Source: Candidatus Bathyarchaeota archaeon
GTDB lineage: Archaea; Thermoproteota; Bathyarchaeia; 40CM-2-53-6
Direction: 5' to 3'
Length of the DNA: 64,000 nucleotides
Assembly (NCBI GenBank): GCA_963726255.1
Contig: CAVSBL010000002.1
Span: 1,472,001 to 1,536,000 of the forward strand
Shown here: in pieces, positions 24,260 to 42,879 of the stretch
Numbering within the stretch: position 1 is the stretch's first letter
How the letters are laid out: the number at the start of each line of letters is the position of its first letter
Program-made: the position numbers and the translations under genes
The notes under the pieces: generated by a model
What the model saw: only the letters and a program-made list of their open reading frames with translations
What the model was told of the DNA's origin: nothing
The model's database searches: none

Positions 24260-24730
24260 TTAGTTCTCACTGATATCGGCGATTTTAGGGCCCAGAATGG
24301 TAACGATGTCTCTAATCCTAACCTCCAGTAGCTTGTCAACATCTCCCCCACCAACGATTGCCGTTTCGTTCTTGAGAACCTGCGGGTCGAGCAGGATGCG
24401 ATGAATGTCGCTGAAGGGACACACCCCTCCAGCAGGATAGCCCGAATGTTTCAGCACTTCCTCGCGGCTCGCGAGCCGGACGTCACTCACAGCGAGGATA
24501 GTCTTGAGCTTCTTGTGGCTAACCTTGCTTTTCGCCGGCACAATTGCGAGCAACGAATCGCCGGCTGAGTCAACCATCACGATAGACTTGACAATCTTCT
24601 CAACCTCAACATTTCTCGCGGCCTGTTCAACCGTCTTCACGGGCTCGTTGAACTCGATGAAGCGGTGCCAAACCTTCTTGGAGCCGAGCAGCAGCCTAAG
24701 TTTCTCAGCGTAATTCGACGATGGCAACAT
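24260..24730 (-). CDS. YbaK/ProX-family aminoacyl-tRNA deacylase (copy 1; start uncertain)
   Basis: KTVEQAA, IVKSIV, RLASREEV, GYPAGGVCPF and GGG motifs. Confidence 0.85.
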   Translation of the reverse strand: MLPSSNYAEKLRLLLGSKKVWHRFIEFNEPVKTVEQAARNVEVEKIVKSIVMVDSAGDSLLAIVPAKSKVSHKKLKTILAVSDVRLASREEVLKHSGYPAGGVCPFSDIHRILLDPQVLKNETAIVGGGDVDKLLEVRIRDIVTILGPKIADISEN

Positions 24731-24864
24731 CTCATTAGAGGGCATTAATGGGGCCAGCTTCCCAAATCTAGGCGATTTAGGTAAACATATTGTTCGAGCA
24801 AACCGCGAAACTCGAAAACCTGTATTAAGAGCATGATGAAACTTCATTCTTGAAGGTGCGGTAA

Positions 24865-25269
24865 ATGCCGCAACGCGCGGGTCTTACAGCTGCTGACATT
24901 ATGACTGAGAATGTTGTGACCAGTGGACCACACGACGGCCTCTGGAGAATCGCGACTCAGATGCAACGCCACAATATTGGATCGGTTGTAATAACGGAAA
25001 AGGGAAAAATACTCGGCATATTGACGGAGAGGGATTTTGTCCGAATAGTTGAACAAGTAGGGGCTTTGCTTGAGAAAAATCTAGCCATACATCATATGAC
25101 CAAGCCCGTCCTTACCGTGCAGTCTGACACGCCGTTGGTGGAAGTCACCAAGCTCATGCGTGAGAAGCATATTAGGCATCTGATTGTGTTAGACAAGAAT
25201 GGTGAAGTGGGGGGAATAATAAGTTCCCGGGACCTGATGAAGGTTACAACTGACATTATGGCGGTCTAA
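24865..25269 (+). CDS. CBS-pair domain protein
   Basis: DIMTENVVT, GILTERDF, HIRHLIV and GIISSRDL motifs. Confidence 0.9.
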   Translation: MPQRAGLTAADIMTENVVTSGPHDGLWRIATQMQRHNIGSVVITEKGKILGILTERDFVRIVEQVGALLEKNLAIHHMTKPVLTVQSDTPLVEVTKLMREKHIRHLIVLDKNGEVGGIISSRDLMKVTTDIMAV

Positions 25270-25292
25270 CGAAACGCGAACGAACTGCCCTT

Positions 25293-25311
25293 CTTCGATT
25301 CTGGATCGAAG
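25293..25311. terminator. Hairpin between convergent genes
   Basis: CTTCGAT-TCTGG-ATCGAAG, a perfect 7-bp stem between the stops at 25269 and 25317. Confidence 0.4.
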
Positions 25312-25316: not shown

Positions 25317-25787
25317 TTACGGGGACGTGAATTCGGCTACGGTTGGTCCTACTAGGTTGACTAATGCTCGAGTGCTGATCTTCACGCTTTTCGTATGCGA
25401 CCCAGGGTTAAAGTAGACATGCTCCTGGCTCAAGAGGGCTTCATCAAAGAATGTTTCGAGGTTGATGATATTCCCGAGCGGGTAGACGCAGCCTACTGAA
25501 CACCGTGTAATCTCTTCAGCCTCTTCCTTTGGAGCCAAAGAAATAGGCGCTGACTTGGTAATTGTGCCTAACCGGTGGAAGTCAATTTTCTTGTTTCCCG
25601 GGAGAACGGCGAGCACGAAGGTGCCGTCGCTTTTTTTCGCTACCATTGACTTTGCGATATGCGCTTCATCGGTCTTGAGGAATTTCGCCATCTGTGGGCA
25701 AGTGTAGACAGGGTTGTGTTCGAAGACCTCAAATTCAATTCCTTGTGCCTTGAGCGAGGACAGAATCTTCTCTTCGATTTCAGTCAT
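25317..25787 (-). CDS. YbaK/ProX-family aminoacyl-tRNA deacylase (copy 2)
   Basis: EHNPVYT, IAKSMV, GCVYPLG and FNPGSHTKSVKI motifs. Confidence 0.87.
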   Translation of the reverse strand: MTEIEEKILSSLKAQGIEFEVFEHNPVYTCPQMAKFLKTDEAHIAKSMVAKKSDGTFVLAVLPGNKKIDFHRLGTITKSAPISLAPKEEAEEITRCSVGCVYPLGNIINLETFFDEALLSQEHVYFNPGSHTKSVKISTRALVNLVGPTVAEFTSP

Positions 25788-25793: not shown

Positions 25794-27407
25794 CTATTTC
25801 ACGATCCACCTTGATTGCTCGCGCATGAATTGTTGTACGTAATACGGGCCTAATCCGCTTTTGCCAGTGGAGCCACTTCCTTTCCATCCTCCAAAGGAGT
25901 TGACCCCAGGCCATGCACCGGTAGTCGCACCTGCGCGCCTGTTCGCGTAGGTTACACCGGCCTGTATCTGGTCGAAGAAGGTTTGCATTTCCTTTTTCTC
26001 TTTCGTGTAGATCCCAGCGCAGAGCCCGAATTCGGTCTCGTTCGCGAGTCTGAGCGCATCGTCAAATGATTCTACGCCTGCGACTACAACAAACGGTACG
26101 AACAGTTCTTCCTTGAACAGCCGGTGAGTTGGCGGCAAACCATCTACTATTGCTGGTTCGACGAAGTAGCCGTTGTCGTACCCGCCACCCCGCAGTGTGC
26201 TACCTCCAGTGATGAACCTGGCGCCGTCCCGCCTTGCATCTTCTGCCGCTCGCTGGTATGTTTCAACGGCGGCTTTGGTGATGATTGGGCCCAAGAATGT
26301 CTCTTTCCGCGTGGGGTCGCCTACCTTCACGAATTTCTGAGTGTAATCTTTCAGAGATTCTAAGAACCTGTCCTTGACACGTCGGTCAACGTACACGCGT
26401 GAGCATGCGCTGCACTTCTGTCCTCCAAACCCGAAGGCTGCTCGCATGACCCCCTCCGCAGCCTGGTCAAGGTCTGCGTTAGCGGTGATTATTGCTGGAT
26501 TCTTGCCTCCCATCTCCGTAATGACGGGTTTGGGGTAATCTTTTGCGAAGTGGTGGTACACCTGCATCCCCACATCCTTCGAGCCCGTGAAAACGAGCCC
26601 ATCAACCCCTGGGTTTTCTTGGAGTTCGACGCCCACCGTTCCGCCCGGTCCAGTGACAAAGTTGTATACGCCGCGTGGGATTCCAGCGTCAATGAAGGCT
26701 CTGCAGAGCTCGTAACCTAGCAATGGTGAATCGCTTGACGGTTTGAAGACGGCTGTGTTTCCCGCGGCGAGGACGCCTGCGGACATGCCGGTGGTCAATG
26801 CGAGTGGGAAGTTCCATGGGCCAATAACTGCCCAGACTCCGTACGGCCGGAGTATGCTTTCCGTCTCCTGTCCTGGCCCTGGTGGTTCAAGTGGCCGCAA
26901 GAAACCTTTGTTGAGTTCCATCTGCTCGCAGTAGTAACGGACTAGCTCGGCGGCTTCGTTAACTTCTGCTAAGGATTCGGAGCGGCTCTTACCGACTTCG
27001 AAGGCCATCCAAGCCGATAGTTCATATCGCCTTTCAATTATCAGGTCGGCGGCCTTGCGTAGGATTGCGATTCGATCCTTGTATGGTGTCGCGGCCCATT
27101 TTGGATACGCCTGCCTAGCTGCTGCAATTGCAGATTTTACGTCGTCCGTAGTGCCCTTCGGAAAGTAGCTTACTGTTAAGCGAGTGTCTACAGGGGAAAC
27201 GTGAACCATTTCCTCGCCGGTTGCTGGCCGTTCCTGTCCGTTAATGAAGATTGGGTAGTGCTTACCAAGCTTGGCCCTCACCTCCTCAACCGCCGTTTCG
27301 TACGCTTTATCGTCCTTAGGTGTCACCTTGAGGGTTGCGTACGTGATTCGGGGCACCTTTGCTGTCGACTTGCTTCTCGTTTTTCTCTTCGCTTTCTTTG
27401 CCACCAC
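25794..27407 (-). CDS. Aldehyde dehydrogenase, probable 1-pyrroline-5-carboxylate dehydrogenase (RocA/PruA-like)
   Basis: PWNFP, FTGS, EMGGKN, AFGFGGQKCSACSR, EELF and FGGWKGSG; the GQKCSA context is typical of P5C dehydrogenases. Confidence 0.8.
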   Translation of the reverse strand: MVAKKAKRKTRSKSTAKVPRITYATLKVTPKDDKAYETAVEEVRAKLGKHYPIFINGQERPATGEEMVHVSPVDTRLTVSYFPKGTTDDVKSAIAAARQAYPKWAATPYKDRIAILRKAADLIIERRYELSAWMAFEVGKSRSESLAEVNEAAELVRYYCEQMELNKGFLRPLEPPGPGQETESILRPYGVWAVIGPWNFPLALTTGMSAGVLAAGNTAVFKPSSDSPLLGYELCRAFIDAGIPRGVYNFVTGPGGTVGVELQENPGVDGLVFTGSKDVGMQVYHHFAKDYPKPVITEMGGKNPAIITANADLDQAAEGVMRAAFGFGGQKCSACSRVYVDRRVKDRFLESLKDYTQKFVKVGDPTRKETFLGPIITKAAVETYQRAAEDARRDGARFITGGSTLRGGGYDNGYFVEPAIVDGLPPTHRLFKEELFVPFVVVAGVESFDDALRLANETEFGLCAGIYTKEKKEMQTFFDQIQAGVTYANRRAGATTGAWPGVNSFGGWKGSGSTGKSGLGPYYVQQFMREQSRWIVK

Positions 27408-27515: not shown

Positions 27516-28229
27516 TTACGAGGCCAGGACCCCCAGGTAAAGCCTCCCGAGTTCCCTGTGTTCGAGCAGTTCCCGAGCGGTTCCTTCGAAAGTATTCTTG
27601 CCACCCACCAGCAGGTAAGCAATGTCGCCTATCTCCAGGGCGCGTTTTGCGTTTTGCTCTGCGAGAATCACGGTCAAGCCGATATCTTTGGCGAGCGACG
27701 CAATGAGGTTTAGGACCTGTGTTGCAATTTTCGGCGCCAAATTTGCGGTCGGTTCATCGAACATCATTACGTTTGGTTCCCTGACGAGCGCTAAGGCCAT
27801 CGCAAGCATCTGCCGCTCTCCACCACTAAGGCTGAATGCTTTGGTGTTCGTGTAGGCTGAAAGCTGTGGAAAGAGTTCGAAGATTCTCTTTAGTCGTCTC
27901 CGATAATCGTCTTGGCTAATCTTGTACCCCGCAAGTTTCAGGTTCTCTGTGATAGTGAGGTTCGTGAATACATTGTCGGTCTGGGGGAGAAAAGCGATAC
28001 CGCTTCTGGCTATTTTATGAGAGGGCCAGCCTGTGATATCCTGCTCGTTATGTTTTATCGTTCCCTGATATAGCGTCGTGAGGCCGGCGACCGTTTTCAG
28101 GAGTGTGCTCTTGCCCGAGCCGTTTGGGCCGACGATGACGGTGACCTCGCTGGCTTTGGCGTTCAGCCTAACGCCGTTGAGAATTTGAAGTTTCCCGTAG
28201 CCAGCGAAGACATCTTTGACGTCCAGCAA
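27516..28229 (-). CDS. livF: Branched-chain amino acid-type ABC transporter ATPase
   Basis: GPNGSGKST, LSGGERQMLA, DEP and EQN motifs. Confidence 0.9.
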   Translation of the reverse strand: MLDVKDVFAGYGKLQILNGVRLNAKASEVTVIVGPNGSGKSTLLKTVAGLTTLYQGTIKHNEQDITGWPSHKIARSGIAFLPQTDNVFTNLTITENLKLAGYKISQDDYRRRLKRIFELFPQLSAYTNTKAFSLSGGERQMLAMALALVREPNVMMFDEPTANLAPKIATQVLNLIASLAKDIGLTVILAEQNAKRALEIGDIAYLLVGGKNTFEGTARELLEHRELGRLYLGVLAS

Positions 28230-28232
28230 TTT

Positions 28233-28997
28233 TCACGCGCCCAAGTATGCTTCTATCACTCTTGGATCGTTGATCACTTGTTCGGGCGGGCCGGCTGCAA
28301 GAAGCCTACCGGATGCCATCGCGTTCACGTAATCGACGTATTTGAGAGCGATGTCGAGCCTGTGTTCTACGATGAAGAATGTTATTCCATATTGCTCTCT
28401 CAGCCGAATGATTCTTGCGAATATTTCGTGAGCTAGGGTTGGATTAACTCCTGACACGGGTTCGTCAAGCAAGTATAGGTTGGCATCACTCATTAGGGCT
28501 CTCCCAATTTCAACTAACTTCATCTGTCCACCGCTCAGGAGCGACGCCGGTGTGTTCAAATGTTCGGACAAGCCGAGCAATTCGAGTATTTTCGACGCCT
28601 TCTCAACAGCGTCTGCCTCATGTTTTGCCCAAAGCCGTTTGACAAGCGACTTGGCGAGTGACTCTCCTGGGTGATTCTTCTCGGCGACGAGCAAGTTCTC
28701 CAGCACCGTGAGCTTGCCGAACATCGACGGTATTTGGAAGGTCCTCGCGATTCCTGTTCGATATACCTGCTGGGGTGACCATCCCGTTATCTCGGTTGTG
28801 CCATAATAGATCTGCCCTTCGTCGGGTTTTTGGAAGCCTGTTATGACATTGATCAACGTGGTCTTTCCCGAGCCGTTTGGCCCGATGAGAATGCTCACTG
28901 TCTTCGCGTCCACGTTGAGCGTAACCCCATCCAAGGCGTGAAGATTGCCGAACGACCTCTTTACGCCTTTGACTTGCAGGAGGTTACCCATGCTCAT
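28233..28997 (-). CDS. livG: Branched-chain amino acid-type ABC transporter ATPase
   Basis: GPNGSGKTT, RTFQ, LSGGQ, VEH and VIEAYLG motifs. Confidence 0.9.
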   Translation of the reverse strand: MSMGNLLQVKGVKRSFGNLHALDGVTLNVDAKTVSILIGPNGSGKTTLINVITGFQKPDEGQIYYGTTEITGWSPQQVYRTGIARTFQIPSMFGKLTVLENLLVAEKNHPGESLAKSLVKRLWAKHEADAVEKASKILELLGLSEHLNTPASLLSGGQMKLVEIGRALMSDANLYLLDEPVSGVNPTLAHEIFARIIRLREQYGITFFIVEHRLDIALKYVDYVNAMASGRLLAAGPPEQVINDPRVIEAYLGA

Positions 28998-28998
28998 C

Positions 28999-30027
28999 TC
29001 ACTTCTTTGGCTGCACGGCTGAAGTCTCTCTTTGCAATGTTCCAACAAGGCCTTCAGGTCTGTAGATGAGAATTAGGATCGTTATGAGGCCAAGTAGAAG
29101 ATAGTTCAGCCAGACTACGTCGAATGGAAGTATCCCGACGAACGCGTACTTGTAGTAGAGTATTAGCTTATTCAGAGACACGAAAACGAAAGTTCCCACC
29201 AGCGCCCCCCTATTGCTTCCCATTCCCCCCAGCAAAATCATAAGCCAAGGCAGAAACGTCCAATCAAACCTAGCATAGGTAGGGGTTACGGCGCCACTGT
29301 ACATAACCCACAGGCTTCCCGCAAATCCACACAACGTCGAGCCAACCAAAATTGCCACGGTCCTATATCGAGTGATGTCCTTACCAAGCGACCTCGCCAC
29401 CACCTCATTGTCCCGAATGGCTTTCAGAGTCCTTCCGAGAGGAGTCTTGATAAGATAACCAGCATAGGCAAAGACTCCGATTGCCACCAAGAGTAGCACG
29501 AAAGTGCCCGCGTAGAATCTATACTGCCCTGCCCATCCTAAGACGTCTGGGACACTAACGCCTGGAGGCCCGCCTAGGAGGGGCTTGTAGCCGACTCCTA
29601 TGACGTTGAGTATCTCTCCGAACGCCAGAAGCGTGATCGCCAAGTAATCTTCCCTAAGCCTAACCGCAGGTGCTGACGAAATGAGGCCCATGGCCGCGCC
29701 CGCAACGCCGCCAATCGCGAGGAACAGAACCAAGAATCCGATGGCTATGAGAGGCTGTGATGTTAAAGTGGGGTTGATCAGCGCCAGTACGGAAACATTG
29801 TTGATAATAGGACTCAGGTCCGTATGAATGCCGAGCAAACTCAAAGCGAGTCTTGTTGATAGACCGCCTGTGAAGTAGGCCCCGCCTGCGACCGCAAAGA
29901 GAATGCCGAAATTAGGTATTCCAGTTATGCCCTCCTGCAAGTTGAGGCCTATGTTGATGATTAAGTAGACTGCGAACAGAGCTAGGAGATCAGTTGTGAA
30001 AAGGACTAGTTGGTCTAGCCCCGACAT
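28999..30027 (-). CDS. livM: Branched-chain amino acid-type ABC permease
   Basis: RLREDYLAITLLAFGE, GRTLKAIRDNE, LGGMGS and RPEGL motifs. Confidence 0.88.
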   Translation of the reverse strand: MSGLDQLVLFTTDLLALFAVYLIINIGLNLQEGITGIPNFGILFAVAGGAYFTGGLSTRLALSLLGIHTDLSPIINNVSVLALINPTLTSQPLIAIGFLVLFLAIGGVAGAAMGLISSAPAVRLREDYLAITLLAFGEILNVIGVGYKPLLGGPPGVSVPDVLGWAGQYRFYAGTFVLLLVAIGVFAYAGYLIKTPLGRTLKAIRDNEVVARSLGKDITRYRTVAILVGSTLCGFAGSLWVMYSGAVTPTYARFDWTFLPWLMILLGGMGSNRGALVGTFVFVSLNKLILYYKYAFVGILPFDVVWLNYLLLGLITILILIYRPEGLVGTLQRETSAVQPKK

Positions 30028-30934
30028 CACTTGGACCTCCGAAACCGCAGGCCTGCTAGGCCCCGGGGCGCAACGATCAACGTGACAGACAGCACGACGA
30101 GCGGAACGATAGGCTCGTAGAATGAAACCCACGGGCCGACGACCGAGGCCAGCACCGACGTTCCGACCACATCGACCAAGCCCAGCAAAAGTCCGCCCAA
30201 TACTGCCCCGTATATCTGCTCAAGACCTCCAACTATGCTCGCGCAGAATATACTGGCCAGCAGGACGGTTCCAGTACTTGGGTTGATCTCTATCCATAGT
30301 GGGATAAGAGCTCCGGCAACACCTGCGAGTCCCCCGCGATGAACCATGACACTGCTAGCATCATGCTAACATTGATGCCGATTGCTTCCGAAAGAGAAGG
30401 GTTTTCCATCGACGCCCTCAACGCTATGCCCAACGTAGTAAAATTCAACAACAGGTACATTGCAGCCGAGCAGAGGGCTAACGTTCCGAGTGCCACGAAA
30501 AGTATACCCGGTTGACCCATGAACTTGAAATCTAATCCGCTTAACAGAACATTCCGGGAAGGAACCTTGTAAACTGTGTTCAAGTAGTCGGCGTGTATGT
30601 TCGTAACGCCGAGCATAATGATATCAAACGCTAGAGTTGCGATCATTAACATTACAGTTGATGAGTTTCTCCTCCTCATCGGTTCGAGAACCGCATAGAA
30701 AAGCAATAAACCGACAAGACCTACCAGGATGAAAGCGATTGGCACGCCGAGATATGGGTTCGGACTTAGGATGACGGTTGAGGTGTAGGTGACGTAGGCG
30801 GCCACAGTCACGAAGGATGCGTGGGCAAAATTAGCAACCTTCGTCGTCCTGTAAAGTAGAGTGACCCCGAGCGCCATAAGTGACAGAATCGCTGAGAAGG
30901 TAAGCCATCCCACAATCGTCGGAAGGAACTCCAT
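30027..30934 (-). CDS. livH: Branched-chain amino acid-type ABC permease, frameshift in a G5 run at 30331-30335
   Basis: NFAHA and GIALRASMEN in one frame; GLAGVAGAL, IVGGL and PRGL in the next. Adding one G restores SWFIAGGLAGVAG. Confidence 0.88.
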
Positions 30935-31105
30935 TAACCTCAGCCACCCATTCTCGAGCTTCGAGCCTCTTTCAGAGGCACCCTCTTAGGAGTCACGTAT
31001 CAACATCCTACTTACAATTAAGATGACCCACACCGTATATGGTAGTGTCTCTCGGGAATTCGTGCCGTCAGAACTCATGTTTCTCCCGATTGGAGTCACA
31101 CCCTG

Positions 31106-31130
31106 AAAAAAAGAAAAGAGGGGGTTTTTG
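31106..31130 (-). terminator. Oligo-T terminator-like tract after the binding-protein gene
   Basis: Minus strand reads CCCCCTCTTTTCTTTTTTT just after the stop at 31136. Confidence 0.55.
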
Positions 31131-31135
31131 TGAGG

Positions 31136-32396
31136 TTACAGTTGCACTAGCCATGTAACTTGTTGATCTACTGATGAGTAGGTGGCAACCCTTTCCCAAT
31201 TGCTTTGGACCACGGCCCAGAACTCCATGTCCATGGTCACTCTGTCTCCAGCTGAGTTGAGTTCAGTGTTGCCTGTCGCACCCCAATACGATGCGGCTAC
31301 CGTTGGCACTGCCGCTTTAATCGCCTCACTGTCGTATTTGCCTGCATTGAGAATTGCGTAAGCCGCTATCCAAGCTGCATCGTATGTGGCCAATGCGTAG
31401 ATATCGGGTTCTTGGCCGATTGCAGATTGAACCTGCTGGTTCAGAGCCAGATGCTTAGAGGTCAATGGCGCCATGAGTTGTACAGAGATTAGATTCACTT
31501 TTGACGCTATAGCGCCAGCGTTTTGTATGATGACCGTGTCCTGCGACAGAGTATCGGGCCCAAACCAAGTTTGTCCAAGCAGCGGGCTGTTTCGGGTGTT
31601 CGCTTGGGATAGCATTGTAGCAACGTCTTCCCACATGTTGGCGAAGACTGCGACAGGTGTCTTGGCCGCCAGGAGAGGTGCCACTTGCCCCTCTAGCGTG
31701 TTGAGTACTACGGTGAAATCTGTCGTAGTCGGATAGGCGTAGGTCACGTCCGCGACCAAGTTGCCTCCGGCCGCTGTCCATGCAGCCTTGAACGAGTCGT
31801 GAATAGAGAGACTGTATGTATCTTCGGCCGAGACCATGATAACGTTCTTGAATCCTTTACTTTGAAGCGCAGCAACGAGCGCGGCGCCTTCAGCCTCAGC
31901 CGCTGGCACAACGCGGAACTCGTAATCTCCGGGTGGAGCTACGGATTCTCTGGCAGCAGTTGAGGTGCCGTCGATTACGACTATCTTGTTAGTGTCGGCG
32001 TATGAGTCGATAGCTTTCATGGCTCCGCTTGTCATGCCTCCTATGACGACTTTACAGCCTTGCGCGTACAGGGCCTGTATTCCCGTTAAGGCTACGTCGG
32101 GTTTGGTCTGAAAGTCTTCGATGTAGAACTTGAATGTCGTCGGTATGCCCAACGAGGTCACGTAGGCATTGATGTCAGTCTCTGCGATCTTGACTGTCGC
32201 CTGAGCTCTTACACCGTAACTCGAGAAGTCTCCGGTGAGGCTTAGCAGAGCGCCGATTGGAATCACGGATGGCAAAGTAGATGTTAAGGGCGGTGGGGTT
32301 GGGTGCAACGCATAACCAAGTCCGCCGCCAATCACGAGCATTACTAGCATCAAAGCAATGACGGGGGGTTTAGTAAGTGTACTAGACGTTTTTCAT
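31136..32396 (-). CDS. ABC transporter substrate-binding protein (LivK-like, membrane anchored); true ATG probably at 32396 with a frameshift in an A5 run
   Basis: IGALLSLTG, YDAAW and GATG...GDR motifs. GAGGAGG precedes ATG 32396; removing one A gives MKTSSTLTKPPVIALML in frame. Confidence 0.85.
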
Positions 32397-32460
32397 ATCC
32401 TCCTCAAAACGAAAAACGTACGCGTCTCGGCGTTTAACATATTTGTACGTAAAATTTGCG

Positions 32461-32613: not shown

Positions 32614-33636
32614 TCAATTACGTTTGTCAGTTAAGTTCCACAAATCGATACGGGTCCCGATTCCCATCGACTTCGCTAATTGGTAGGCTCTGAAAGCCGT
32701 GGATGCGTCTGAGGCGGCTGTCCCTACAGATTTGAAAACGGTTATCTCACTAGGCGAAGTTCTGCCCGGCTTCCTTCCCGCCACTATGGCCCCGATCTCG
32801 CTGTAAATGTCTTCTTCTCTTAGAATCCCTTTGGAAATTGGGTAGGATAAATCGCCGACGTTCTTGGCGTCCCAAGTATCCAATACGATTTTTGACGCTC
32901 GCTTCATAACTTCCTCGTCGAGTTCTCTTGCATCAGGCGTATGTGATCCGATTCCTGTCACGTGGCAACCTGATGATAGCCATTCTCCCTTGATGATTGG
33001 TTTCGACGAGGTCGTGGCGGTCACGACGATATCTGACTCACGAACTGCATTTTCGAGATTGTCTGTCACGGCGAAGTCTGAGTCGACATGATTCTTCATT
33101 TCCTCGACGAATTTTCGGCATCTCTCGGCATCGAGGTCATAAGCAAACACCTTCTTTATTCTGCGAACTTCGGTCAGGGCAAGTATCTGGGCACGCCCCT
33201 GCACCCCTGTTCCTGCAATGGTCGCCGTAGAGGCATCCTCGCGCGAAAGGTACTTAGCTGCCACAGCGCCCGCCGCGCCTGTTCGGATTGCAGTTATGTA
33301 TGTTCCATCGAGGATGGCTAGGGGTAGGCCGTTCTCAGGGTCAATTAGGATAATCGTTGCAATTACAGTTGGCAATCCCAACTTGTGATTGTTTAGATGT
33401 GTCGTCACGAGTTTCGTTGCCAACGCGTTCGCGCCAGTCAAATAGGCTGGCATCACAAGCATGTTTCCGCCATAACGGTCCATGTCCACCCTCAGCCTAG
33501 CGGGGACGACTGCAGTGCCCAGGCCGACTTCTCTATACGCGTTCTCCACGGCTCTCACCGCTTCGATTGGCGTCAGCACGCGCTCGACGTCCTTTCGCGA
33601 CAACAAAAGAGCTGAATGATGTTTTCTACCTTCCAT
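32614..33636 (-). CDS. Ornithine cyclodeaminase/mu-crystallin family protein (candidate delta1-pyrroline-2-carboxylate reductase)
   Basis: [28 protein letters not shown] and FKSVG motifs. Confidence 0.88.
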
Positions 33637-33671: not shown

Positions 33672-34775
33672 TCATTCGATGGTCAGCACTGGTTTGCCTA
33701 GTACTTCCATCTTCGGCTTGATGCCGAGTCCCGGCAATTTGTTCGCGGCCATCCGGCCGTTGACGCGATGTGGAGCGCCTTCTGCGATACTTACAGTAAC
33801 GTAGCTATTGAAGTCGGTTGTTGAGAAGAGGAACTCAGGCGGCGTACTATGCGCTAGATGTGCTATGGCTGCAGTCGTGATGTCGCCTCCCCAACTGTCC
33901 TCAATAGTCATAGCTATGCCCATCGAAACACAAAGGTCACGCGCTTGACGCGCTTTGGTGAGGCCGCCGAATTTGCTGATCTTAATGTTCACCACGTCCA
34001 TTGCTAAGTCAGCCTTACCGCGCAGAAGCATGTCAATGCTATCAATCACCTCGTCGAGCACGAACGGATGGTTCGTCTGGCGGCGAACTGATAGGCACTC
34101 CTCGTAGGTCAAACATGGTTGCTCGATATAGACATCAACATCTTCAACTGCACGCACAACTCGCATGGCATCGTGCATCAACCAGCCGGTGTTCGCGTCC
34201 GCCACCAGGCGGTCGCCCGGCTGCAGCCGTGCGGAGACGGCGCGGATACGTTCAATGTCTGATTCAGGATCGCCCCCGACTTTGAGTTGAAAACGACGAT
34301 AACCTTCTTGTCGATAGGCGGCCACGCGATTGGCCATGCTTTCAGGTGATTCTTGCGAGATAGCACGGTACAGGCCGAAATCTTCGCCATAACGGCCGCC
34401 GAGCAGAACGCATACAGGCTGGCCGGTGACTCGGCCAAGGATGTCCCAACAGGCTATGTCGATGGGAGATTTCACGTAGGGGTGCCCTTTGAGTGCAGAA
34501 TCCATGCGACGGTTCAGACGGCCAAGTTCGAGTGGATCCTCGCCGAGTAGATGCGGTCCCAGTTCAGCGATGCCTGCGCGTACACCGTTCGCGTATGCGG
34601 GGAGGTAATACGGCCCAAGTGGGCACATCTCACCATAACCAATGACACCGGTATCGGTCTCTACACCAACAACTGTGCTGTCGAAAACGGTAACAGATTT
34701 GCCGCCGGACCACTTGTACGCACCTCCCTCAAGAGGAAGGTCAACCTTCCATGCGGAGATCTTCTTGATTCTCAT
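33672..34775 (-). CDS. Enolase-superfamily (MR/MLE) enzyme, cis-3-hydroxy-L-proline dehydratase-like
   Basis: [62 protein letters not shown] and TDFNSY, matching my recollection of the Labrenzia c3LHyp dehydratase subfamily. Confidence 0.8.
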
Positions 34776-34807
34776 ACTGCAACTCCTCACGTGCTACGAG
34801 AATTCGG

Positions 34808-35185
34808 TCACCATTTCTTGGCTTCGTCTGGCTCGATTACAATTCCCTTTTCAGACTCAATCTTCCTGAGCTGTTCGTATGCTTTGTCAAATAACTCTTC
34901 GTTTAGGTTTGCAAGAGTAAATTGCATAGAGTTTTCCAGGAATTTCTGGAGTTCAAAAGGACTCTTCAACTCATGCGTAACTCCCACGTCTATGTCGCCG
35001 CCTTTCGGAACTCCGACTGTTACGTTCTTTCCATGGAATTTTACTCCCAGCCTTTTCCTTCCCCCCCAGATTGTCAAGGCCAGAACCGAGTCATCGTGTG
35101 TTCTAGCGTATGAGGCAAGAAGCCGCAAACAGTGGAGGTAATTCTCATGAATTGACAGCCTTTCTGAATCGATATTGAATTGCAT
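34808..35185 (-). CDS. Hypothetical protein (probable start ATG 35185)
   Basis: Protein-like composition from MQFNIDSERL; the longer ORF-track extension overlaps the neighbouring gene. Confidence 0.5.
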   Translation of the reverse strand: MQFNIDSERLSIHENYLHCLRLLASYARTHDDSVLALTIWGGRKRLGVKFHGKNVTVGVPKGGDIDVGVTHELKSPFELQKFLENSMQFTLANLNEELFDKAYEQLRKIESEKGIVIEPDEAKKW

Positions 35186-35357
35186 GTTAGAACCTGTTGT
35201 GTTTTTCGCCATTCGGTATAGTCCCACGCTTCTCCTATACGCTTTAGACATTAAGTCAGTATTCTCCAGGAGACACCGCGAATCGGATTGCATTGATTCG
35301 CGGAAATTGTGCTTGTGAAGATTGGCGGGGCATGTTACTTCAGGAGATGTTGTCGCG

Positions 35358-35741
35358 TTAGAGGTGCTTTCTAATCTCGGCTTCGGCTTCCTCTGGGGCC
35401 ACAACGTGCACTTTCGGCCCCGCGTCCTCTAGAAGTTTCTTTGCCTTGTCGTGCGCCGGGGCTGGGACGATGAGTACGACGGGTATGTCCAAGGTCTTGC
35501 ATGCGAACAACAGATCAGCCGGGCCCATGCGTTCCTGTTCAGCTGGTACGACCTTGTGAAAATATCCGACTACAACGTTTACCTCGCCCTTGCTAAGGTG
35601 GTTGACGTACTTCCCGTGTCCGTCCCATGTGTTCGCCACCGGCAATGTCTCAACGCCTTCAGCAGCGAGCTTCGACAACAGAAGTGCATCAGTTCCTTCA
35701 AAATAACCAACTCTAGCCAACGGTCTTAGCCTCGGGTACAA
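35358..35741 (-). CDS. Conserved-looking alpha/beta hypothetical protein
   Basis: RVGYFEGTD, NTWDGHGK and VVGYFHKV; alternating strand/helix pattern. Confidence 0.65.
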   Translation of the reverse strand: MYPRLRPLARVGYFEGTDALLLSKLAAEGVETLPVANTWDGHGKYVNHLSKGEVNVVVGYFHKVVPAEQERMGPADLLFACKTLDIPVVLIVPAPAHDKAKKLLEDAGPKVHVVAPEEAEAEIRKHL

Positions 35742-39474: not shown

Positions 39475-39555
39475 CGTACTATGGAAATCATTCACAGGAG
39501 ATATAGCTCGGGTCAATTGATGTGGAAGATATAGAACTAGTAGTTGTAATCATGC

Positions 39556-40518
39556 TTGTCAGGACAATTTACGGCTCTAAGCTATCAGGGGCATCGTGAA
39601 AATGGAATCGAAGATTCTGCTGGAACTATTTTTGATATAGTAAAGTTCTCAACGCATGACGGCCCGGGCATTCGGACCGCCGTATTCTTCAAAGGCTGCC
39701 CTCTGCACTGTTGGTGGTGCCACAACCCTGAAGGACAGACTCCCGCAGCACAACTCGTTTACAGAGAAGAAAGATGCATCCGTTGCTTCAGCTGCGTAGA
39801 GGCATGCCCGAATCACGCTATCAAAATCCTCGAAGACATTCCAACTCTTCTAAAAAATGCCTGTAAGCTTTCTGGCATGTGCACTATAGCGTGCCAGACG
39901 AAAGCCAGAGAAATGGCGGGGAAGAGACTCAAAGTTTCCGACGTCATGGAAGAAATAGAGAAGGACAATATTTTCTATGACGAATCTGGTGGCGGAGTCA
40001 CCTTTTCAGGTGGCGAACCATTTATGCAACCCGTCTTCCTCCAGAACCTACTTGAAGCCTGCAATGAGAGGAGAATACGCACGGCCGTTGAGACCTGCGG
40101 GTTCGTAAACTCCGAGATTTTACTGAATAGCGGCCGATATGTAGATTTGTACTTGTATGATTTGAAAGTCGTCGATGATGAGACTCATCGTAGGTTCACG
40201 GGTGTCTCAAATGAAGTGATCCTGAAGAACTTGCGGCAACTCTCTCAGGTCCACGACCACGTCATTGTTCGTTTCCCCGTTATTCCCGGCGTGAATGACC
40301 ATGATGCGAACGTCCTTCGATTAGGCGAATTCGTATCGTCATTGGGAAGCGTGAAAGAAATTGATGTTCTTCCCTACCACGAACTTGGCATTGAAAAGTA
40401 CAAGCGACTTGGAATGGTGAACAGGATGCCGGAAATCGAACCGCCCTCCACCTCAGAGACGCGTGCGATAGTGGAGAAATTGGAAGGGTTTGGGTTACTG
40501 GTTAAGGTAGGAGGTTGA
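39556..40518 (+). CDS. Glycyl-radical enzyme activating enzyme (radical SAM with ferredoxin insert); start uncertain
   Basis: HDGPGIRT, GCPLHCWWCHNPE, CIRCFSCVEACP, GGVTFSGGEP and LPYH motifs. Confidence 0.93.
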   Translation: MSGQFTALSYQGHRENGIEDSAGTIFDIVKFSTHDGPGIRTAVFFKGCPLHCWWCHNPEGQTPAAQLVYREERCIRCFSCVEACPNHAIKILEDIPTLLKNACKLSGMCTIACQTKAREMAGKRLKVSDVMEEIEKDNIFYDESGGGVTFSGGEPFMQPVFLQNLLEACNERRIRTAVETCGFVNSEILLNSGRYVDLYLYDLKVVDDETHRRFTGVSNEVILKNLRQLSQVHDHVIVRFPVIPGVNDHDANVLRLGEFVSSLGSVKEIDVLPYHELGIEKYKRLGMVNRMPEIEPPSTSETRAIVEKLEGFGLLVKVGG

Positions 40519-40522
40519 TGAT

Positions 40523-42879
40523 ATGAATGAAAGAGTGGGAAAGCTTAGGCAACAAAGCCTGGATACGAAACCGCGGATCTCTGGTGAAAGAGCCGAACTG
40601 ATGACGGAATTCTATGAACACTCCTCGGAACCCGCTAGCCCTATCAGAAGAGCTCTTGCATTCGAGCATTTGATGGAAAGCAAGGCGATCTACGTAGGTG
40701 ACGGAGAACTAATCGTCGGCGAAAGAGGCCCTGCACCGAAGGCCACACCCACGTACCCGGAACTATGCTGCCACAGCCTTAAGGACCTTCAAATTCTCAA
40801 CGACCGAAAGAAAATTTCCTTTGCCGTTGACGACCAAACGCGAAAGGTCTACGAGGACAGAATTATTCCGTTTTGGCGAGGCCGAACCATCCGTGACCGT
40901 ATCTTTTCCGAAATGTCGGATGAGTGGAAAGCGGCATACGAGGCCGGTATCTACACGGAGTTCATGGAACAGCGCGCCCCAGGGCACACTGTTTTGGACG
41001 ATAAAATCTACCGTAAAGGCTTCTTAGACTTTCAGGTCGACATCGAGAACGCGAAGCAAAAGCTCGACTATCACAACGACCCTGACGCTTACAGGAAGCA
41101 GAAAGAGCTCGAGGCCATGTCCATTTGTTGTGATGTCATCATCCGGTTTGCTCAACGCCACTCTGAGAAAGCGTGCGAGATGGCTCAGCATGAAACTAAC
41201 CCCCAACGAAGAGAGGAATTGGAGAGAATTGCAGAGGTTTGCTCAAATGTTCCGGCACATGCGCCGCGTGACTTCTGGGAGGCACTGCAGGCCTACTGGT
41301 TCGTTCACTTGGGCGTAATCACGGAACTTAACACGTGGGATTCCTTCTGCCCAGGCCATCTTGACCAACACCTGTTCCCGTTCTACAAGCGGGGGCTTGA
41401 GGATGGGACACTAACGAGGGACAAAGCGAAGGAGCTCTTGGAATGCCTCTGGGTGAAGTTCAACAATCAACCCGCGCCGCCGAAAGTCGGTGTAACGGCG
41501 GAGGAGAGCGCCACCTACACGGACTTCGCCAACATCAACCTCGGCGGCCTAAGGCAGGATGGTTCAGATGGGGTCAACGAACTCAGCTACTTGATCCTAG
41601 ATGTTATTGATGAGATGAGGCTCGTACAACCATCATCGAACATCCAACTCAGCAAGAAGAGCCCCGACCGCTTCCTGAAGAGAGCCTGCGAGATTATCAG
41701 GGAGGGATGGGGACAACCGTCGATATTCAACGTCGACCTAATTGTCGAAGAACTTATCCGCCAGGGCAAGGCTGTTGAAGACGCACGGTCAGGCGGCATA
41801 AGCGGTTGCGTTGAAACGGGATGCTTTGGCAAAGAGGCTTACATACTAACCGGGTACCTGAACCTACCGAAAATATTGGAGATTACCCTAAACAACGGAG
41901 TAGACCCGCGCACAGGCAAGAAGATTGGGTCGACCACGGACGACTCAGCGGGTTTCAAGTCTTTCGACGAACTCTTCGACGCATTCACTAAACAATTGAA
42001 ACATTTCGTTGACATCAAGGTTAGAGGCAGCAATATTATTGAAAGATTATTCGCCGAGCAAATGCCCGCCCCATTTCTATCGACGCTAATTGATGACTGC
42101 ATCGTGAAGGGTAGGGACTACAATGACGGGGGCCCACGCTACAATACGACTTACATAATGCCCGTTGGAATCGGCACGCTAACAGACAGCCTAGCAGCGA
42201 TCAAACGTCACGTCTTTGATGAGAAACAGTTGAGAATGGAGCAATTGCTCAAGACACTCGAAAAGAATTTTGAAGGACATGAATTAATCCGCCAAATGCT
42301 TTGGAATAAGACGCCGAAGTATGGAAACGACGACGACTACGCTGATGAATGGTTGAAAGCGGCCTTCGATTCATTATACCACGTGATTAGCGGCCGAAAG
42401 AACACGAAGGGAGGATTCTATGCAGTCAACTACCTCTCCACAACGTGCCACGTCTACTTCGGCTCGGTAGTGGGTGCAACGCCCGACGGAAGACACGCGT
42501 ATGAGCCAGTGTCCGAAGGTGTTTCACCCGTACAGGGTGCCGATACACACGGTCCTACAGCCGTGATAAAGTCGGTTGCCAAAATGGACCAAGTCCGCAG
42601 GGTGGAACGCTACTAAACCAGAAATTCTCCCCATCACTCCTAGAGGGCGAATTAGGCATTGACAACCTCGCACACCTGGTGCGATCCTACTTCAAGCTGG
42701 ACGGCCACCACGTCCAAATGAATGTCGTGACAGCGGAAACTCTACGCGCAGCACAAGCGAACCCTGAGAAATATCGGGACTTGATCGTTCGAGTGGCAGG
42801 GTACAGCGACTACTTCTGTGACCTGGGCAAGACACTGCAAGATGAAATCATTGCTCGAACAGAACACAAGTCCTTCTAG
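40523..42879 (+). CDS. hypD: trans-4-hydroxy-L-proline dehydratase (glycyl radical enzyme), single-base frameshift at about 42599
   Basis: EFMEQRAPGH, NTWD, ESATYTDF, SGCVE, LTGY and LSTTC correspond to recalled HypD active-site residues. GGTLLNQKF and the glycyl loop RVAGYS follow in the shifted frame. Confidence 0.88.

What the first reader, a model, noticed from the sequence alone, without database searches (positions are those of the whole stretch)
24260..42879. Archaeal multi-isomer hydroxyproline utilisation region
Seen: Liv-type ABC importer, c3LHyp-dehydratase-like enzyme adjacent to a mu-crystallin-family gene, P5C dehydrogenase-like ALDH, and HypD plus activase within 19 kb. Known: c3LHyp dehydratase yields delta1-pyrroline-2-carboxylate, which OCD-family reductases convert to proline; HypD yields P5C; P5C dehydrogenase yields glutamate. 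Inference: this archaeon anaerobically scavenges both 3- and 4-hydroxyproline (collagen, extensin or detrital peptides). I do not know this combination as a described archaeal locus.
Basis: partly seen in the sequence, partly recalled or inferred. Interest (0 to 1): 0.78.

Follow-up and report, generated by a model that had tools for sequence, protein, structure and literature searches.

The report
Stepwise-built archaeal hydroxyproline catabolism island
A sediment archaeon (Bathyarchaeia) has gathered genes of known enzyme families for breaking down two forms of hydroxyproline next to a resident glutamate-forming dehydrogenase, but one key gene is broken in this assembly.

Summary
The genome is archaeal, and its closest named relative is a Candidatus Bathyarchaeia MAG.

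- **Weaker assignments:** the OCD-family gene most resembles the Thermococcus litoralis pyrroline-2-carboxylate reductase. The ALDH is the genome's best P5C-dehydrogenase candidate. Neither passes a curated cut-off.
HypD has a one-base deletion that puts its glycyl-radical domain in another frame; real or technical is unresolved. LivH is split at a G run, which is probably an assembly error.
- **Not a conserved locus:** only this genome and its nearest relative hold both modules together. Relatives show a backbone without them. They also show an intermediate stage with only the dehydratase and ABC importer inserted before the ALDH. The reductase and the activase-HypD cassette came later.
- **Origin:** the dehydratase came from bacteria and is confined to one genus.
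- **Rest of the pathway:** proline dehydrogenase lies 735 kb away. ProC and proline-racemase-family genes were not found.

The likely routes converge on P5C and then glutamate. This is a new arrangement of known parts: HypD in archaea is already in print and in NCBI names. Moderate interest.

The parts
33672..34790 (-). [quoted passage not shown]
   Evidence: NF043002 scores 624.4 bits against a cut-off of 500. Best PDB chain is 4mgg at 530 bits over residues 6-369. Within the class it is found in one genus only (8 of 23 genomes, plus one 61% hit elsewhere; 9 of 401 in all). The archaeal copies form one clade among bacterial sequences.
32614..33636 (-). OCD/mu-crystallin family enzyme, probable NADH-dependent delta1-pyrroline-2-carboxylate reductase (TlLhpI-like)
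   Evidence: Pfam OCD_Mu_crystall 280.6 bits. No NCBIfam cut-off is passed. Best PDB chain is 6t3e, 'Delta1-pyrroline-2-carboxylate reductase', at 286 bits, against 241 and 238 bits for AlaDH. The R-K-R-D tetrad and the NAD Asp are kept. The discriminating triad reads L-H-A (with PMC4141209). Orthologues of at least 67% identity occur in 3 of 59 family genomes. The gene is absent from this position in G307 and G260.
31136..32353 (-). Substrate-binding protein of the Liv-type (HAAT) ABC importer, ligand unknown
   Evidence: Peripla_BP_6 120 bits, ANF_receptor 102 bits. No NCBIfam hit. Best PDB match is only 32.7 bits. Orthologues of at least 90% identity occur only in the 4 of 59 genomes that carry the dehydratase-ABC cassette; the next best is 46%.
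30027..30934 (-). LivH-type permease, split into two ORFs (30290-30934 and 30027-30347) at a G5 run, 30331-30335
   Evidence: BPD_transp_2 profile positions 2-187 and 185-267 fall in the two pieces. An extra C behind 30330 is present in all three runs that cover the place (X1, X4, X5). A JGI relative is intact at 302 aa, and other assemblies break at the same run in other ways.
28999..30132 (-). LivM-type permease
   Evidence: BPD_transp_2 142 bits. LivM NF008450 93 bits, below its cut-off.
28233..29048 (-). LivG-type ABC ATPase
   Evidence: ABC_tran plus BCA_ABC_TP_C. LivG model 214 bits, below its cut-off.
27516..28229 (-). LivF-type ABC ATPase
   Evidence: ABC_tran 112.6 bits. LivF model 187 bits and UrtE model 191 bits, both below their cut-offs.
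25794..27407 (-). Aldehyde dehydrogenase, probable L-glutamate gamma-semialdehyde (P5C) dehydrogenase; a resident gene
   Evidence: Aldedh 456 bits. Its best NCBIfam models are P5CDH (426.5 and 391.6 bits, below the cut-offs of 648 and 660). Its best PDB chains are P5CDH and PutA at 328-300 bits, against 252 bits for the next ALDH class. It is the best of 8 ALDH genes in the genome on the P5CDH model (426 against 351 bits). Orthologues occur in 45 of 59 family genomes.
25317..25787 (-). Free-standing YbaK/ProX-type tRNA-editing-domain protein, 6 bp after the ALDH; role in the pathway is speculative
   Evidence: tRNA_edit 102.7 bits. Best PDB chains are 3op6, 1wdv (APE2540) and 2cx5. It is an accessory gene: orthologues of at least 56% identity occur in 8 of 59 family genomes, 6 of which carry HypD.
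39556..40518 (+). Glycyl-radical-enzyme activase (radical SAM), HypD-AE-like
   Evidence: TIGR02494 scores 359.7 bits against a cut-off of 174. The HypD-activase model NF043069 scores 370.7 bits, below its cut-off of 425.
40523..42879 (+). trans-4-hydroxy-L-proline dehydratase HypD, interrupted by a one-base deletion at 42599 (N part 40523-42616; C part 42601-42879 in another frame)
   Evidence: NF043068 scores 1170.5 bits against a cut-off of 1100 on the N part alone. The N part is 675 of 692 residues identical to the intact 785-aa gene of L002, and the C part is 92 of 92 identical. L002's HypD scores 1146 bits to C. difficile HypD 6vxc, against 582 bits for the next GRE. All 13 checked residues are kept. 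The break is described.

Best explanation
The region is a lineage-specific gene island in a Bathyarchaeia archaeon. It brings two separate hydroxyproline entry routes next to one resident exit enzyme.

**Route 1, on the minus strand (inferred).** The Liv-type ABC system imports cis-3-hydroxy-L-proline or a close analogue. The enolase-type dehydratase converts it to delta1-pyrroline-2-carboxylate. The TlLhpI-like OCD-family reductase reduces that to L-proline with NADH. The proline dehydrogenase encoded 735 kb away oxidises proline to P5C. The ALDH at the end of the gene string oxidises P5C (glutamate semialdehyde) to glutamate.

**Route 2, on the plus strand (inferred).** The activase installs a glycyl radical on HypD. 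HypD dehydrates trans-4-hydroxy-L-proline directly to P5C without oxygen, and the same ALDH takes it to glutamate. No ProC was found, so reduction of P5C to proline is unlikely.

**What is shown.** Family membership of the dehydratase and of HypD, the conserved catalytic residues, the gene order, and the comparative history of the region.

**What is inferred.** The substrates, the transporter's ligand, the role of the ALDH, and the flux.

**History of the island.**
- The backbone had the ALDH-YbaK pair but no hydroxyproline genes.
- A dehydratase plus ABC cassette was then inserted just upstream of the ALDH. The dehydratase itself came from bacteria.
- In this species and its nearest relative, the reductase was added behind the dehydratase, and the activase-HypD cassette was placed 4.8 kb away.

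**State in this assembly.** HypD carries a one-base deletion, so route 2 is either freshly inactivated in this population or mis-assembled. It is intact in the nearest relatives.
For: **Identity of the parts**
- Curated equivalog cut-offs are passed by the dehydratase (624 against 500 bits) and by HypD (1170 against 1100 bits).
- Nearest solved structures: 4mgg at 530 bits; HypD 6vxc at 1146 bits against 582 for the next GRE; Pyr2C reductase 6t3e at 286 bits against 241 for AlaDH; P5CDH at 328 bits against 252 for the next ALDH class.
- The HypD residues named by Backman et al. 2020 (PMC7077986, passages read) are all kept in the window: Arg156, His160, Asp278, Lys326, Ser334, Asp339, Phe340, Cys434, Glu436, Tyr450, Thr645. 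So are Phe152 (recalled) and the radical glycine within RVAGYS (numbered Gly765 from recall).
- The OCD homologue keeps the Arg-Lys-Arg-Asp tetrad and the NAD-specific Asp. At the three positions that separate the enzyme classes it reads L-H-A. TlLhpI reads L-V-A, AfAlaDH reads R-D-K and true OCD reads E-D-K (with PMC4141209 section 2 read).

**Coupling of the parts**
- In 29 of the 79 other loci fetched with the dehydratase, an OCD-family gene lies in the locus, mostly directly downstream.
- SBP orthologues of at least 90% identity exist only in the 4 of 59 family genomes that have the dehydratase-ABC cassette.
- G275 has hyp198 directly next to the ALDH, with no cassette.
- G307 and G260 have the cassette but neither the OCD gene nor HypD at this place.
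- HypD is again close to proline or P5C genes in two other arrangements. In G307 it lies beside Pro_dh. In G313 it lies 12.4 kb from the ALDH, inside a rearranged copy of the same neighbourhood.

**Own genome**
- Pro_dh gives 1 hit at 97.9 bits.
- The P5CR_dimer (ProC) search gave no hit, and its control rang in 12 of 14 genomes.
- The window's ALDH is the best of 8 ALDH genes on the P5CDH model.

**Origin of the dehydratase**
- 78 of the 80 best loci are not labelled archaeal (bacterial phyla, or unassigned titles).
- The 10 genus-g1 rows form one clade with SH-aLRT 98, among Planctomycetota rows.
Against: - HypD is out of frame for its last 92 codons. The same deletion appears in a second public assembly (P0245). 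Run X1 reported no inserted base there at depth 9.35. Route 2 may therefore really be dead in this population.
- The two modules are separated by six ORFs with no known link to hydroxyproline. They lie together in only 2 of the 5 genomes that have both. In G307 they are 900 kb apart.
- The ALDH fails the curated P5CDH cut-offs (426 against 648 bits). It is a widespread resident gene (45 of 59 genomes), so its position may owe nothing to hydroxyproline.
- The OCD homologue passes no curated cut-off, and its middle discriminating residue (His) matches none of the characterised classes.
- The binding protein has no informative relative (32.7 bits at best).
- Proline dehydrogenase is 735 kb away.
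- The natural source of the cis-3 isomer in sediments is unclear.
- The direction of change (gain, or loss in G275) is inferred by parsimony without a rooted species tree.
- The dehydratase tree is a quick tree with midpoint rooting and weak deep support.
- The genome is scored at 9.3% contamination, although synteny with same-genus genomes argues against a chimeric region.
Confidence: 0.6

Rival explanations
1. The juxtaposition is a coincidence. The ABC importer and ALDH serve general amino-acid (proline, arginine or branched-chain) catabolism. The dehydratase is a horizontally acquired passenger, and the HypD cassette landed nearby without any functional coupling.
For: - The ALDH is resident in 45 of 59 family genomes, irrespective of hydroxyproline genes.
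- The dehydratase sits in four unrelated contexts in G224, G333, G295 and G327.
- The HypD cassette sits in differing contexts across the class.
- Six ORFs with no known link to hydroxyproline lie between the modules.
- The window also carries three APC amino-acid permeases and a trypsin-like peptidase, which fits a general amino-acid scavenger.
Against: - The SBP and Liv genes occur at 90% identity or more only where the dehydratase cassette occurs (4 of 59 genomes).
- The OCD gene was inserted exactly between the dehydratase and the SBP gene. This matches the dehydratase-OCD pairing seen in 29 of 79 other loci.
- HypD lies near proline or P5C genes in three different arrangements.
Confidence: 0.2
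2. In this particular organism the 4-hydroxyproline route is a fresh pseudogene, and only the cis-3 route still works. The island is decaying rather than being built.
For: - There is a one-base deletion at 42599, outside any homopolymer.
- A second assembly, P0245, ends with the same shifted residues.
- No inserted base was reported for run X1 at depth 9.35. The same run's contigs do correct the LivH break.
In L132 (G309) I likewise found HypD without an activase hit.
Against: - The 92 codons after the break are 92 of 92 identical in protein to the intact orthologue, so any lesion is very recent.
- Runs X2 and X4, and loci L002 and L204, have the extra base.
- Besides G000, 22 class genomes have a full or near-full-length HypD orthologue. 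All read without internal stops in open frames of 786-812 aa.
- The second assembly has further breaks in the same gene, and the genome shows a technical homopolymer error nearby (LivH). A systematic consensus error is therefore possible.
- X1 may not be independent of the assembly.
Confidence: 0.35
3. The enolase-family enzyme and the OCD homologue act on a different cyclic imino acid, such as an N-methylated or other substituted proline or a pipecolate derivative. The module would then not be a hydroxyproline pathway.
For: - The OCD homologue passes no curated model, and its middle discriminating residue (His) is unlike characterised enzymes.
- TlLhpI itself is promiscuous, acting on pipecolate and 4-Hyp isomers (PMC4141209, section 2 read).
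- The SBP is uninformative.
- The environmental source of the cis-3 isomer is obscure.
Against: - The dehydratase exceeds the equivalog cut-off by 124 bits. In the alignment its match to the nearest structure, 4mgg, is full length (residues 6-369), at 530 bits.
- The next group of chains scores about 220-228 bits.
Confidence: 0.1

Closest known systems
HypD / HypD-AE of Clostridioides difficile (PDB 6vxc; NCBIfam NF043068 and NF043069)
   Same: It is the same enzyme family. The intact sister gene scores 1146 bits to 6vxc. The CXE Cys loop, the HypD-specific Asp278, Asp339, His160, Ser334, Tyr450, Thr645 and Phe340, and the RVAGYS motif are all kept. The activase lies directly upstream (PMC7077986).
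   Different: - The host is archaeal.
- There is no adjacent proC and none was found in the genome, so P5C probably goes to glutamate rather than to proline and Stickland reduction. Huang 2018 (PMC6219649) suggested this fate for some bacteria.
- The gene is frameshifted in this assembly.
- According to a 2026 review (PMC13450708, passage read), no archaeal PFL-like GRE has yet been characterised.
[quoted passage not shown] 2015; seen here only as cited and described in PMC5144071)
   Same: It passes the equivalog model. The best solved relative is 4mgg, which I recall as the L. aggregata enzyme; the tool's title does not say so. It is paired with a Pyr2C reductase gene.
   Different: - Here the gene sits in an archaeon after horizontal transfer.
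- It is coupled to a Liv-type ABC importer and to an archaeal-type (TlLhpI-like) reductase. The bacterial LhpI/LhpK types are not used.
- It is placed upstream of a P5CDH-like ALDH.
LhpH-LhpI cluster of Thermococcus litoralis, for trans-3-hydroxy-L-proline (Watanabe et al. 2014, PMC4141209)
   Same: It is an archaeal hydroxyproline-related cluster that uses an OCD-family Pyr2C reductase of the same subfamily. 6t3e is the best PDB hit of the window's protein, and I recall that entry as the T. litoralis enzyme. Proline dehydrogenase is part of the wider pathway in both cases.
   Different: [quoted passage not shown] No member of that family was found in this genome.
- T. litoralis has no HypD and no enolase-type enzyme.
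- Its proline dehydrogenases are heteromeric flavoenzymes. Here the match is to the PutA-type Pro_dh domain.
[quoted passage not shown] 2016, PMC5144071)
   Same: It catalyses the same reaction, in bacterial hydroxyproline clusters.
   Different: It has an unrelated fold (aconitase X). It was not searched for in this genome.

Membership tests
trans-4-hydroxy-L-proline dehydratase HypD (NF043068) | Score at or above the curated equivalog cut-off | tested here: met
   1170.5 bits against a cut-off of 1100, from the 697-aa N part alone.
trans-4-hydroxy-L-proline dehydratase HypD (NF043068) | Cys-loop CXE motif and the HypD-specific substrate and acid-base residues (His160, Asp278, Asp339, Ser334, Phe340, Tyr450, Thr645) | tested here: met
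   All are kept in the window's N part. The residue list comes from PMC7077986.
trans-4-hydroxy-L-proline dehydratase HypD (NF043068) | C-terminal glycyl-radical domain (RVAGYS) in the same polypeptide | tested here: not met
   The motif is present but lies in another frame after a one-base deletion at 42599. The gene is intact in L002, L204 and 22 other class genomes. Whether the break is real is unresolved.
trans-4-hydroxy-L-proline dehydratase HypD (NF043068) | Cognate radical-SAM activase encoded alongside | tested here: met
   The activase at 39556-40518 lies directly upstream. TIGR02494 is passed at 359.7 bits against a cut-off of 174. The HypD-AE equivalog model scores 370.7 bits, below its cut-off of 425.
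[quoted passage not shown] | Score at or above the curated equivalog cut-off, and clear separation from hydroxyproline-betaine epimerases | tested here: met
   624.4 bits against a cut-off of 500. 530 bits to 4mgg, against 220-228 bits to 4e8g, 2pmq and 4h2h. That these three chains are the betaine epimerases is recalled, not shown by the tool's titles.
[quoted passage not shown] | MLE-subgroup catalytic lysines and Asp/Glu/Asp metal ligands | tested here: inconclusive
   The stretches around them are identical or conservative in the alignment to 4mgg..fqlKvGG....vaDaNtgw....yiEqPc....vlDEvi....niKisk... Which residues are catalytic is recalled, because the primary paper could not be read.
delta1-pyrroline-2-carboxylate reductase, archaeal TlLhpI type (OCD/CRYM superfamily) | Catalytic tetrad Arg39-Lys67-Arg110-Asp303 and NAD-specific Asp159 | tested here: met
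   All five are aligned and kept (numbering from PMC4141209).
delta1-pyrroline-2-carboxylate reductase, archaeal TlLhpI type (OCD/CRYM superfamily) | Discriminating triad: TlLhpI L52-V224-A228, against AfAlaDH R-D-K and OCD E-D-K | tested here: inconclusive
   The window reads L-H-A. Two of three positions match TlLhpI, and none matches AlaDH or OCD. The His is not seen in a characterised member. No NCBIfam cut-off is passed.
L-glutamate gamma-semialdehyde (P5C) dehydrogenase (NF002852 / TIGR01237) | Score at or above the curated cut-off | tested here: not met
   426.5 bits against 648, and 391.6 bits against 659.65. These are still the best-scoring families. P5CDH and PutA chains are the best PDB hits. 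The gene is also the best of 8 ALDH genes in the genome on this model.
Liv-type (HAAT) ABC amino-acid importer | Binding protein, two permeases and two ATPases in one gene string | tested here: met
   All five are present at 27516-32353. LivH is split at a G run, which is probably technical.
Liv-type (HAAT) ABC amino-acid importer | Ligand specificity (branched-chain amino acids) | not testable with these tools
   The best solved relative scores 32.7 bits, and there is no NCBIfam hit.
Thermococcus litoralis-type archaeal 3-hydroxyproline cluster | [quoted passage not shown] | tested here: not met
   PF05544 gave no hit in the genome, which is 98.5% complete. The control rang in 4 of 14 genomes, over the cut-off in 1.

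The most novel reading that the evidence does not exclude
One genus of Bathyarchaeia from sediments, peat and wetlands is in the course of assembling a dedicated hydroxyproline island. It does so by horizontal transfer from bacteria and by relocation of its own genes. This would give these uncultured anaerobic archaea access to plant- and microbe-derived hydroxyprolines as a carbon and nitrogen source, through an oxygen-independent radical enzyme.

The free-standing YbaK/ProX-type editing protein, co-transcribed with the ALDH, would be a quality-control factor. It would remove hydroxyproline mischarged on tRNA-Pro while the cell is loaded with the analogue.
Probability: 0.2. Interest if true: 0.65.

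Novelty: new variant of a known kind. Interest (0 to 1): 0.45.

Why it matters
Bathyarchaeia are among the most abundant uncultured archaea in sediments and are thought to live on detrital protein. Concrete, testable substrate assignments for them are rare.

- **First archaeal radical enzyme of known function.** An intact archaeal HypD is available in the sister genome. According to a 2026 review, no archaeal PFL-like glycyl radical enzyme has yet been characterised, so it could be the first with a demonstrated function.
- **A view of how clusters form.** The comparative series runs from the bare backbone, through the stage with the dehydratase-ABC cassette, to the full island with the reductase and HypD. 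It is a clean natural example of a catabolic cluster being built step by step around a resident exit enzyme, with a bacterial gene as the seed.
- **Limits.** The enzymes are of known families and are already auto-annotated in public records. The gain is ecological and evolutionary, not a new mechanism.

Tried and rejected
- **Expression.** No RNA holder was listed for the region among public runs, so nothing can be said about expression.
- **Settling the HypD frameshift.**
  - The single read-laying run lists the extra base for X2 and X4 but not for X1 or X5, and it hides 2 rows. By counting gaps per record, I infer that the hidden rows belong to X2 and X5, not to X1. This is an inference.
  - The one metagenome scan returned a single contig with the intact version.
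  - The exact look-up found the truncated protein only on the window's own 2.36-Mb contig, plus a 247-aa fragment from another assembly that ends in the same shifted residues.
  - The question stays open.
- **Mobile-element scars around the activase-HypD insertion.** Only short chance-level repeats were found. The junctions fall cleanly in the 73-bp MTase-PNPOx spacer of G307 and G260.
- **D-proline reductase (PF09338).** There was no hit, but the control rang in none of 14 genomes, so the search is uninformative.
- **Primary paper on the enolase-type dehydratase (Zhang 2015).** It is not held. Its content is taken from the description in PMC5144071 and from recall.
- **Conserved ALDH-Pro_dh adjacency.** Pro_dh lies beside HypD only in G307, which is 1 of the 20 loci fetched. 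It was in none of the 20 ALDH loci and none of the 80 dehydratase loci.
- **Dehydratase contexts in G224, G333, G295 and G327.** They share no partner genes.
- **Tree.** The careful tree search did not finish, so a quick tree was used.
- **Not attempted.** Structure prediction of the binding protein and a search for AcnX-type dehydratases.

Full report
**What is in the sequence**

ORF listing, Pfam and NCBIfam give the following map.

| Coordinates | Strand | Gene |
|---|---|---|
| 35358-35741 | - | unknown (hyp127) |
| 34808-35404 | - | unknown (hyp198) |
| 33672-34790 | - | enolase-superfamily dehydratase |
| 32614-33636 | - | OCD/mu-crystallin homologue |
| 31136-32353 | - | Liv-type binding protein |
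| 30027-30934 | - | LivH |
| 28999-30132 | - | LivM |
| 28233-29048 | - | LivG |
| 27516-28229 | - | LivF |
| 25794-27407 | - | aldehyde dehydrogenase (ALDH) |
| 25317-25787 | - | YbaK/ProX-type tRNA_edit protein (YbaK2), 6 bp after the ALDH |
| 24865-25269 | + | CBS pair |
| 24260-24847 | - | second tRNA_edit protein |

- Between the two modules lie a Dph6-like gene, an unknown ORF, a NUDIX gene and a DNA methylase.
- After these, on the plus strand, come the glycyl-radical activase (39556-40518) and HypD (40523-42879).
- The genome has 2.42 Mb in 5 contigs and is scored 98.5% complete and 9.3% contaminated. It carries archaeal rRNA.
- The closest named record is a Candidatus Bathyarchaeia MAG (L002). 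It is 97% identical in the dehydratase and has the same gene order from enolase to the OCD gene.

**Identity of the parts**

[quoted passage not shown] Its best solved relative is 4mgg (530 bits). The next group of chains scores 220-228 bits; I recall these as hydroxyproline-betaine epimerases.
- *HypD.* The N-terminal 697 residues alone pass the HypD equivalog model (1170 against 1100 bits).
  - The intact sister protein scores 1146 bits to C. difficile HypD, against 582 bits for the next glycyl radical enzyme.
  - Backman et al. 2020 (PMC7077986, passages) name the residues that bind or act on hydroxyproline. I checked 13 positions and all are kept in the window.
- *OCD homologue.* It passes no curated cut-off. 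Its best solved relative is a Pyr2C reductase (6t3e, 286 bits), ahead of archaeal alanine dehydrogenase (241 bits).
  - Numbering follows Watanabe et al. 2014 (PMC4141209, section 2 read).
  - It keeps the catalytic tetrad and the NAD-specific Asp.
  - At the three discriminating positions it reads L-H-A. The reductase reads L-V-A, alanine dehydrogenase reads R-D-K and true cyclodeaminase reads E-D-K.
- *ALDH.* It is most like P5C dehydrogenases but falls below the curated cut-offs. It is the best of eight ALDH genes in the genome on that model.
- *Binding protein.* It has no informative relative.

**Two breaks**

*LivH.* The gene is split at a G5 run.
- All three public runs that cover the place have one more base there. 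One of them has contigs otherwise identical to the window.
- Other assemblies break at the same run in other ways, and a JGI relative is intact.
- I read this as a technical homopolymer error.

*HypD.* One base is missing at 42599, outside any homopolymer.

Evidence that the gene is intact in the lineage:
- The frame stops after 697 codons. The last 92 codons follow in another frame and are 92 of 92 identical to the intact orthologue.
- Two runs (X2, X4), L002 and one metagenome contig (L204) have the extra base.
- All 22 other class genomes with a full or near-full-length HypD orthologue read without internal stops, in open frames of at least 786 aa.

Evidence that the break is real in this population:
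- The run closest to the window showed no insertion at depth 9.35.
- A second public assembly ends in the same shifted residues, though it has further breaks in the same gene.
- Across the 12 kb shared with L002, this is the only frame-breaking difference.

The break is therefore either a very recent lesion in this population or a systematic consensus error. I could not decide between them.

**Is it one locus? The comparative picture**

*Distribution in a sample of 401 genomes of the class:*
- HypD orthologues (at least 59% identical, at least 1074 bits) occur in 23 genomes, or 24 counting one fragmentary case. They are spread over four families. Seven of these genomes are in the 23-genome genus g1, G000 included.
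- The dehydratase occurs in 9 of the 401 genomes. Eight of them are in genus g1.
- Five genomes have both. Only G000 and G281 (the genome of L002) have them on one stretch. In G307 they are 900 kb apart.

*Gene order in relatives:*
- G275 has the backbone PNPOx, methylase, NUDIX, unknown, Dph6-like, hyp127, hyp198, ALDH, YbaK2, CBS, MFS. It has no hydroxyproline genes.
- G307 and G260 have the dehydratase, the binding protein and LivHMGF inserted between hyp198 and the ALDH. They have neither the OCD gene nor HypD at this place.
- G000 and G281 also have the OCD gene between the dehydratase and the binding protein. The activase-HypD cassette sits in the 73-bp spacer between the methylase and PNPOx, without repeats at the junctions.

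*How specific each part is to the island:*
- Binding-protein orthologues of at least 90% identity exist only in the four cassette genomes (4 of 59; next best 46%).
- OCD orthologues of at least 67% identity exist in 3 of 59 genomes, and the resident paralogues are at most 49% identical.
- The ALDH is resident in 45 of 59 genomes.

*Conclusion on history:*
- Stepwise gain is the most parsimonious reading. Loss in G275 cannot be excluded without a rooted species tree.

**Links to proline and P5C metabolism elsewhere**

- In G307, HypD lies beside a Pro_dh gene and a DAO-family oxidoreductase. G000 keeps that Pro_dh locus, without HypD, 735 kb from the window.
- In G313, the activase-HypD cassette sits 12.4 kb from the ALDH, inside a rearranged copy of the same neighbourhood.
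- In G134, the 67% OCD orthologue follows a DHDPS-family gene, with Pro_dh 5 kb away.
- In 29 of the 79 other dehydratase loci, an OCD-family gene lies in the locus, mostly directly downstream.
- The genome gave no hit for ProC or for the proline racemase family.

**Origin of the dehydratase**

- Of the 80 best loci in one-genome-per-species contigs, 78 are not labelled archaeal (bacterial phyla, or unassigned titles) and 2 are Bathyarchaeia.
- The quick maximum-likelihood tree used 87 of 89 rows. Two were dropped because the match was shorter than 330 aa or contained a stop.
- In that tree the ten genus-g1 rows form one clade (SH-aLRT 98) among Planctomycetota rows. The deeper support is weak, and the root is only at the midpoint.
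- A single transfer from bacteria into the genus is the simplest reading.

**Mechanism proposed**

- *Route 1.* Import by the Liv-type system, dehydration of cis-3-hydroxy-L-proline to Pyr2C, NADH-dependent reduction to proline, oxidation to P5C by Pro_dh, then oxidation to glutamate by the ALDH.
- *Route 2.* Radical dehydration of trans-4-hydroxy-L-proline to P5C by HypD, then the same ALDH.
- *Status.* Enzyme family membership and gene history are shown. Substrates, transporter ligand and flux are inferred.

**Comparison with what is known**

- Archaeal HypDs and a P5C-to-glutamate fate were noted by Huang et al. 2018 (PMC6219649, passages). NCBI already names several Bathyarchaeia proteins as HypD.
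- An archaeal 3-hydroxyproline cluster is known from T. litoralis, but it uses a proline-racemase-family dehydratase for the trans isomer (PMC4141209).
- The enolase-type dehydratase is known from Labrenzia (described in PMC5144071).
- Full-text searches for Bathyarchaeota or Bathyarchaeia together with hydroxyproline found one irrelevant paper and none, respectively.
- A 2026 review states that no archaeal PFL-like glycyl radical enzyme has been characterised (PMC13450708, passage).
My locus L132 shows a similar case.

**A lead, not a finding**

- The YbaK2 gene is accessory: orthologues of at least 56% identity occur in 8 of 59 genomes.
- Six of the seven HypD-bearing genomes of the genus carry it, against two of the sixteen without HypD. 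The genomes are close kin, so this is not a statistical test.
- A role in clearing hydroxyprolyl-tRNA-Pro is possible. I found no paper linking these terms.

**Verdict**

- This is a new arrangement of known parts, with an informative assembly history. Interest is moderate.

Noticed in passing
window 30331-30335 (LivH): This G/C homopolymer is a hot spot for frame errors. The window and one Logan contig end at the same shifted residues, an ENA assembly shifts into another frame, and a JGI relative is intact at 302 aa.
   Followed up: partly
genome G000, whole: ARAGORN in default mode finds only 7 tRNA candidates, of which 2 are standard. With introns allowed it finds 35. Of these, 31 are drawn with an intron, some at non-canonical positions or of implausible length.
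   Followed up: no
window 32455-32492: A short tandem ACTTAT repeat sits in the 260-bp spacer between the OCD gene and the binding-protein gene. Read laying skipped this stretch as a repeat. A separate promoter for the transporter genes may lie here.
   Followed up: no
L127 (G307:C1:1224600-1244500), 11336-14132: In a same-genus genome, HypD is followed, in convergent orientation, by a Pro_dh gene and a DAO-family FAD oxidoreductase.
   Followed up: partly
G333:C20:132995-137338; G224:C1:1532474-1537099; G327:C12:60425-65017: OCD-family paralogues (41-45% identical to the window's) sit 2.3-2.7 kb from Liv-type binding-protein paralogues (33-34%). This occurs in three same-genus genomes that carry the dehydratase elsewhere. 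It may be a recurrent OCD plus ABC module of unknown substrate.
   Followed up: no
G000:C2:2283902-2284903: The genome's second OCD-family paralogue (45% identical) is reported with one in-frame TAA. This is possibly another broken gene.
   Followed up: no
window 58065-63446: Three overlapping minus-strand ORFs (887, 445 and 527 aa) carry GXGXG and Glu_synthase domains. They overlap at 60599-60728 and 61863-61936. This is either an archaeal-type split glutamate synthase or further frame problems.
   Followed up: no
window 1738-5065, 51776-53752, 21046-22269: There are three APC-family amino-acid permeases and a trypsin-like peptidase in the same 64 kb. An A-type ATP synthase operon lies at 9652-17658. 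This is consistent with an amino-acid-scavenging way of life.
   Followed up: no
window 48119-49695: A putative phage metallopeptidase, a SLOG cluster-4 protein and a YfbR-like HD phosphohydrolase lie side by side. This may be a nucleotide-related or defence-related trio.
   Followed up: no
window 37759-39474: A 571-aa N6/N4 DNA methylase has a weak match to the DUF1156 anti-phage-associated family (63 bits against a cut-off of 1000). It is conserved in the backbone of all five related genomes.
   Followed up: no
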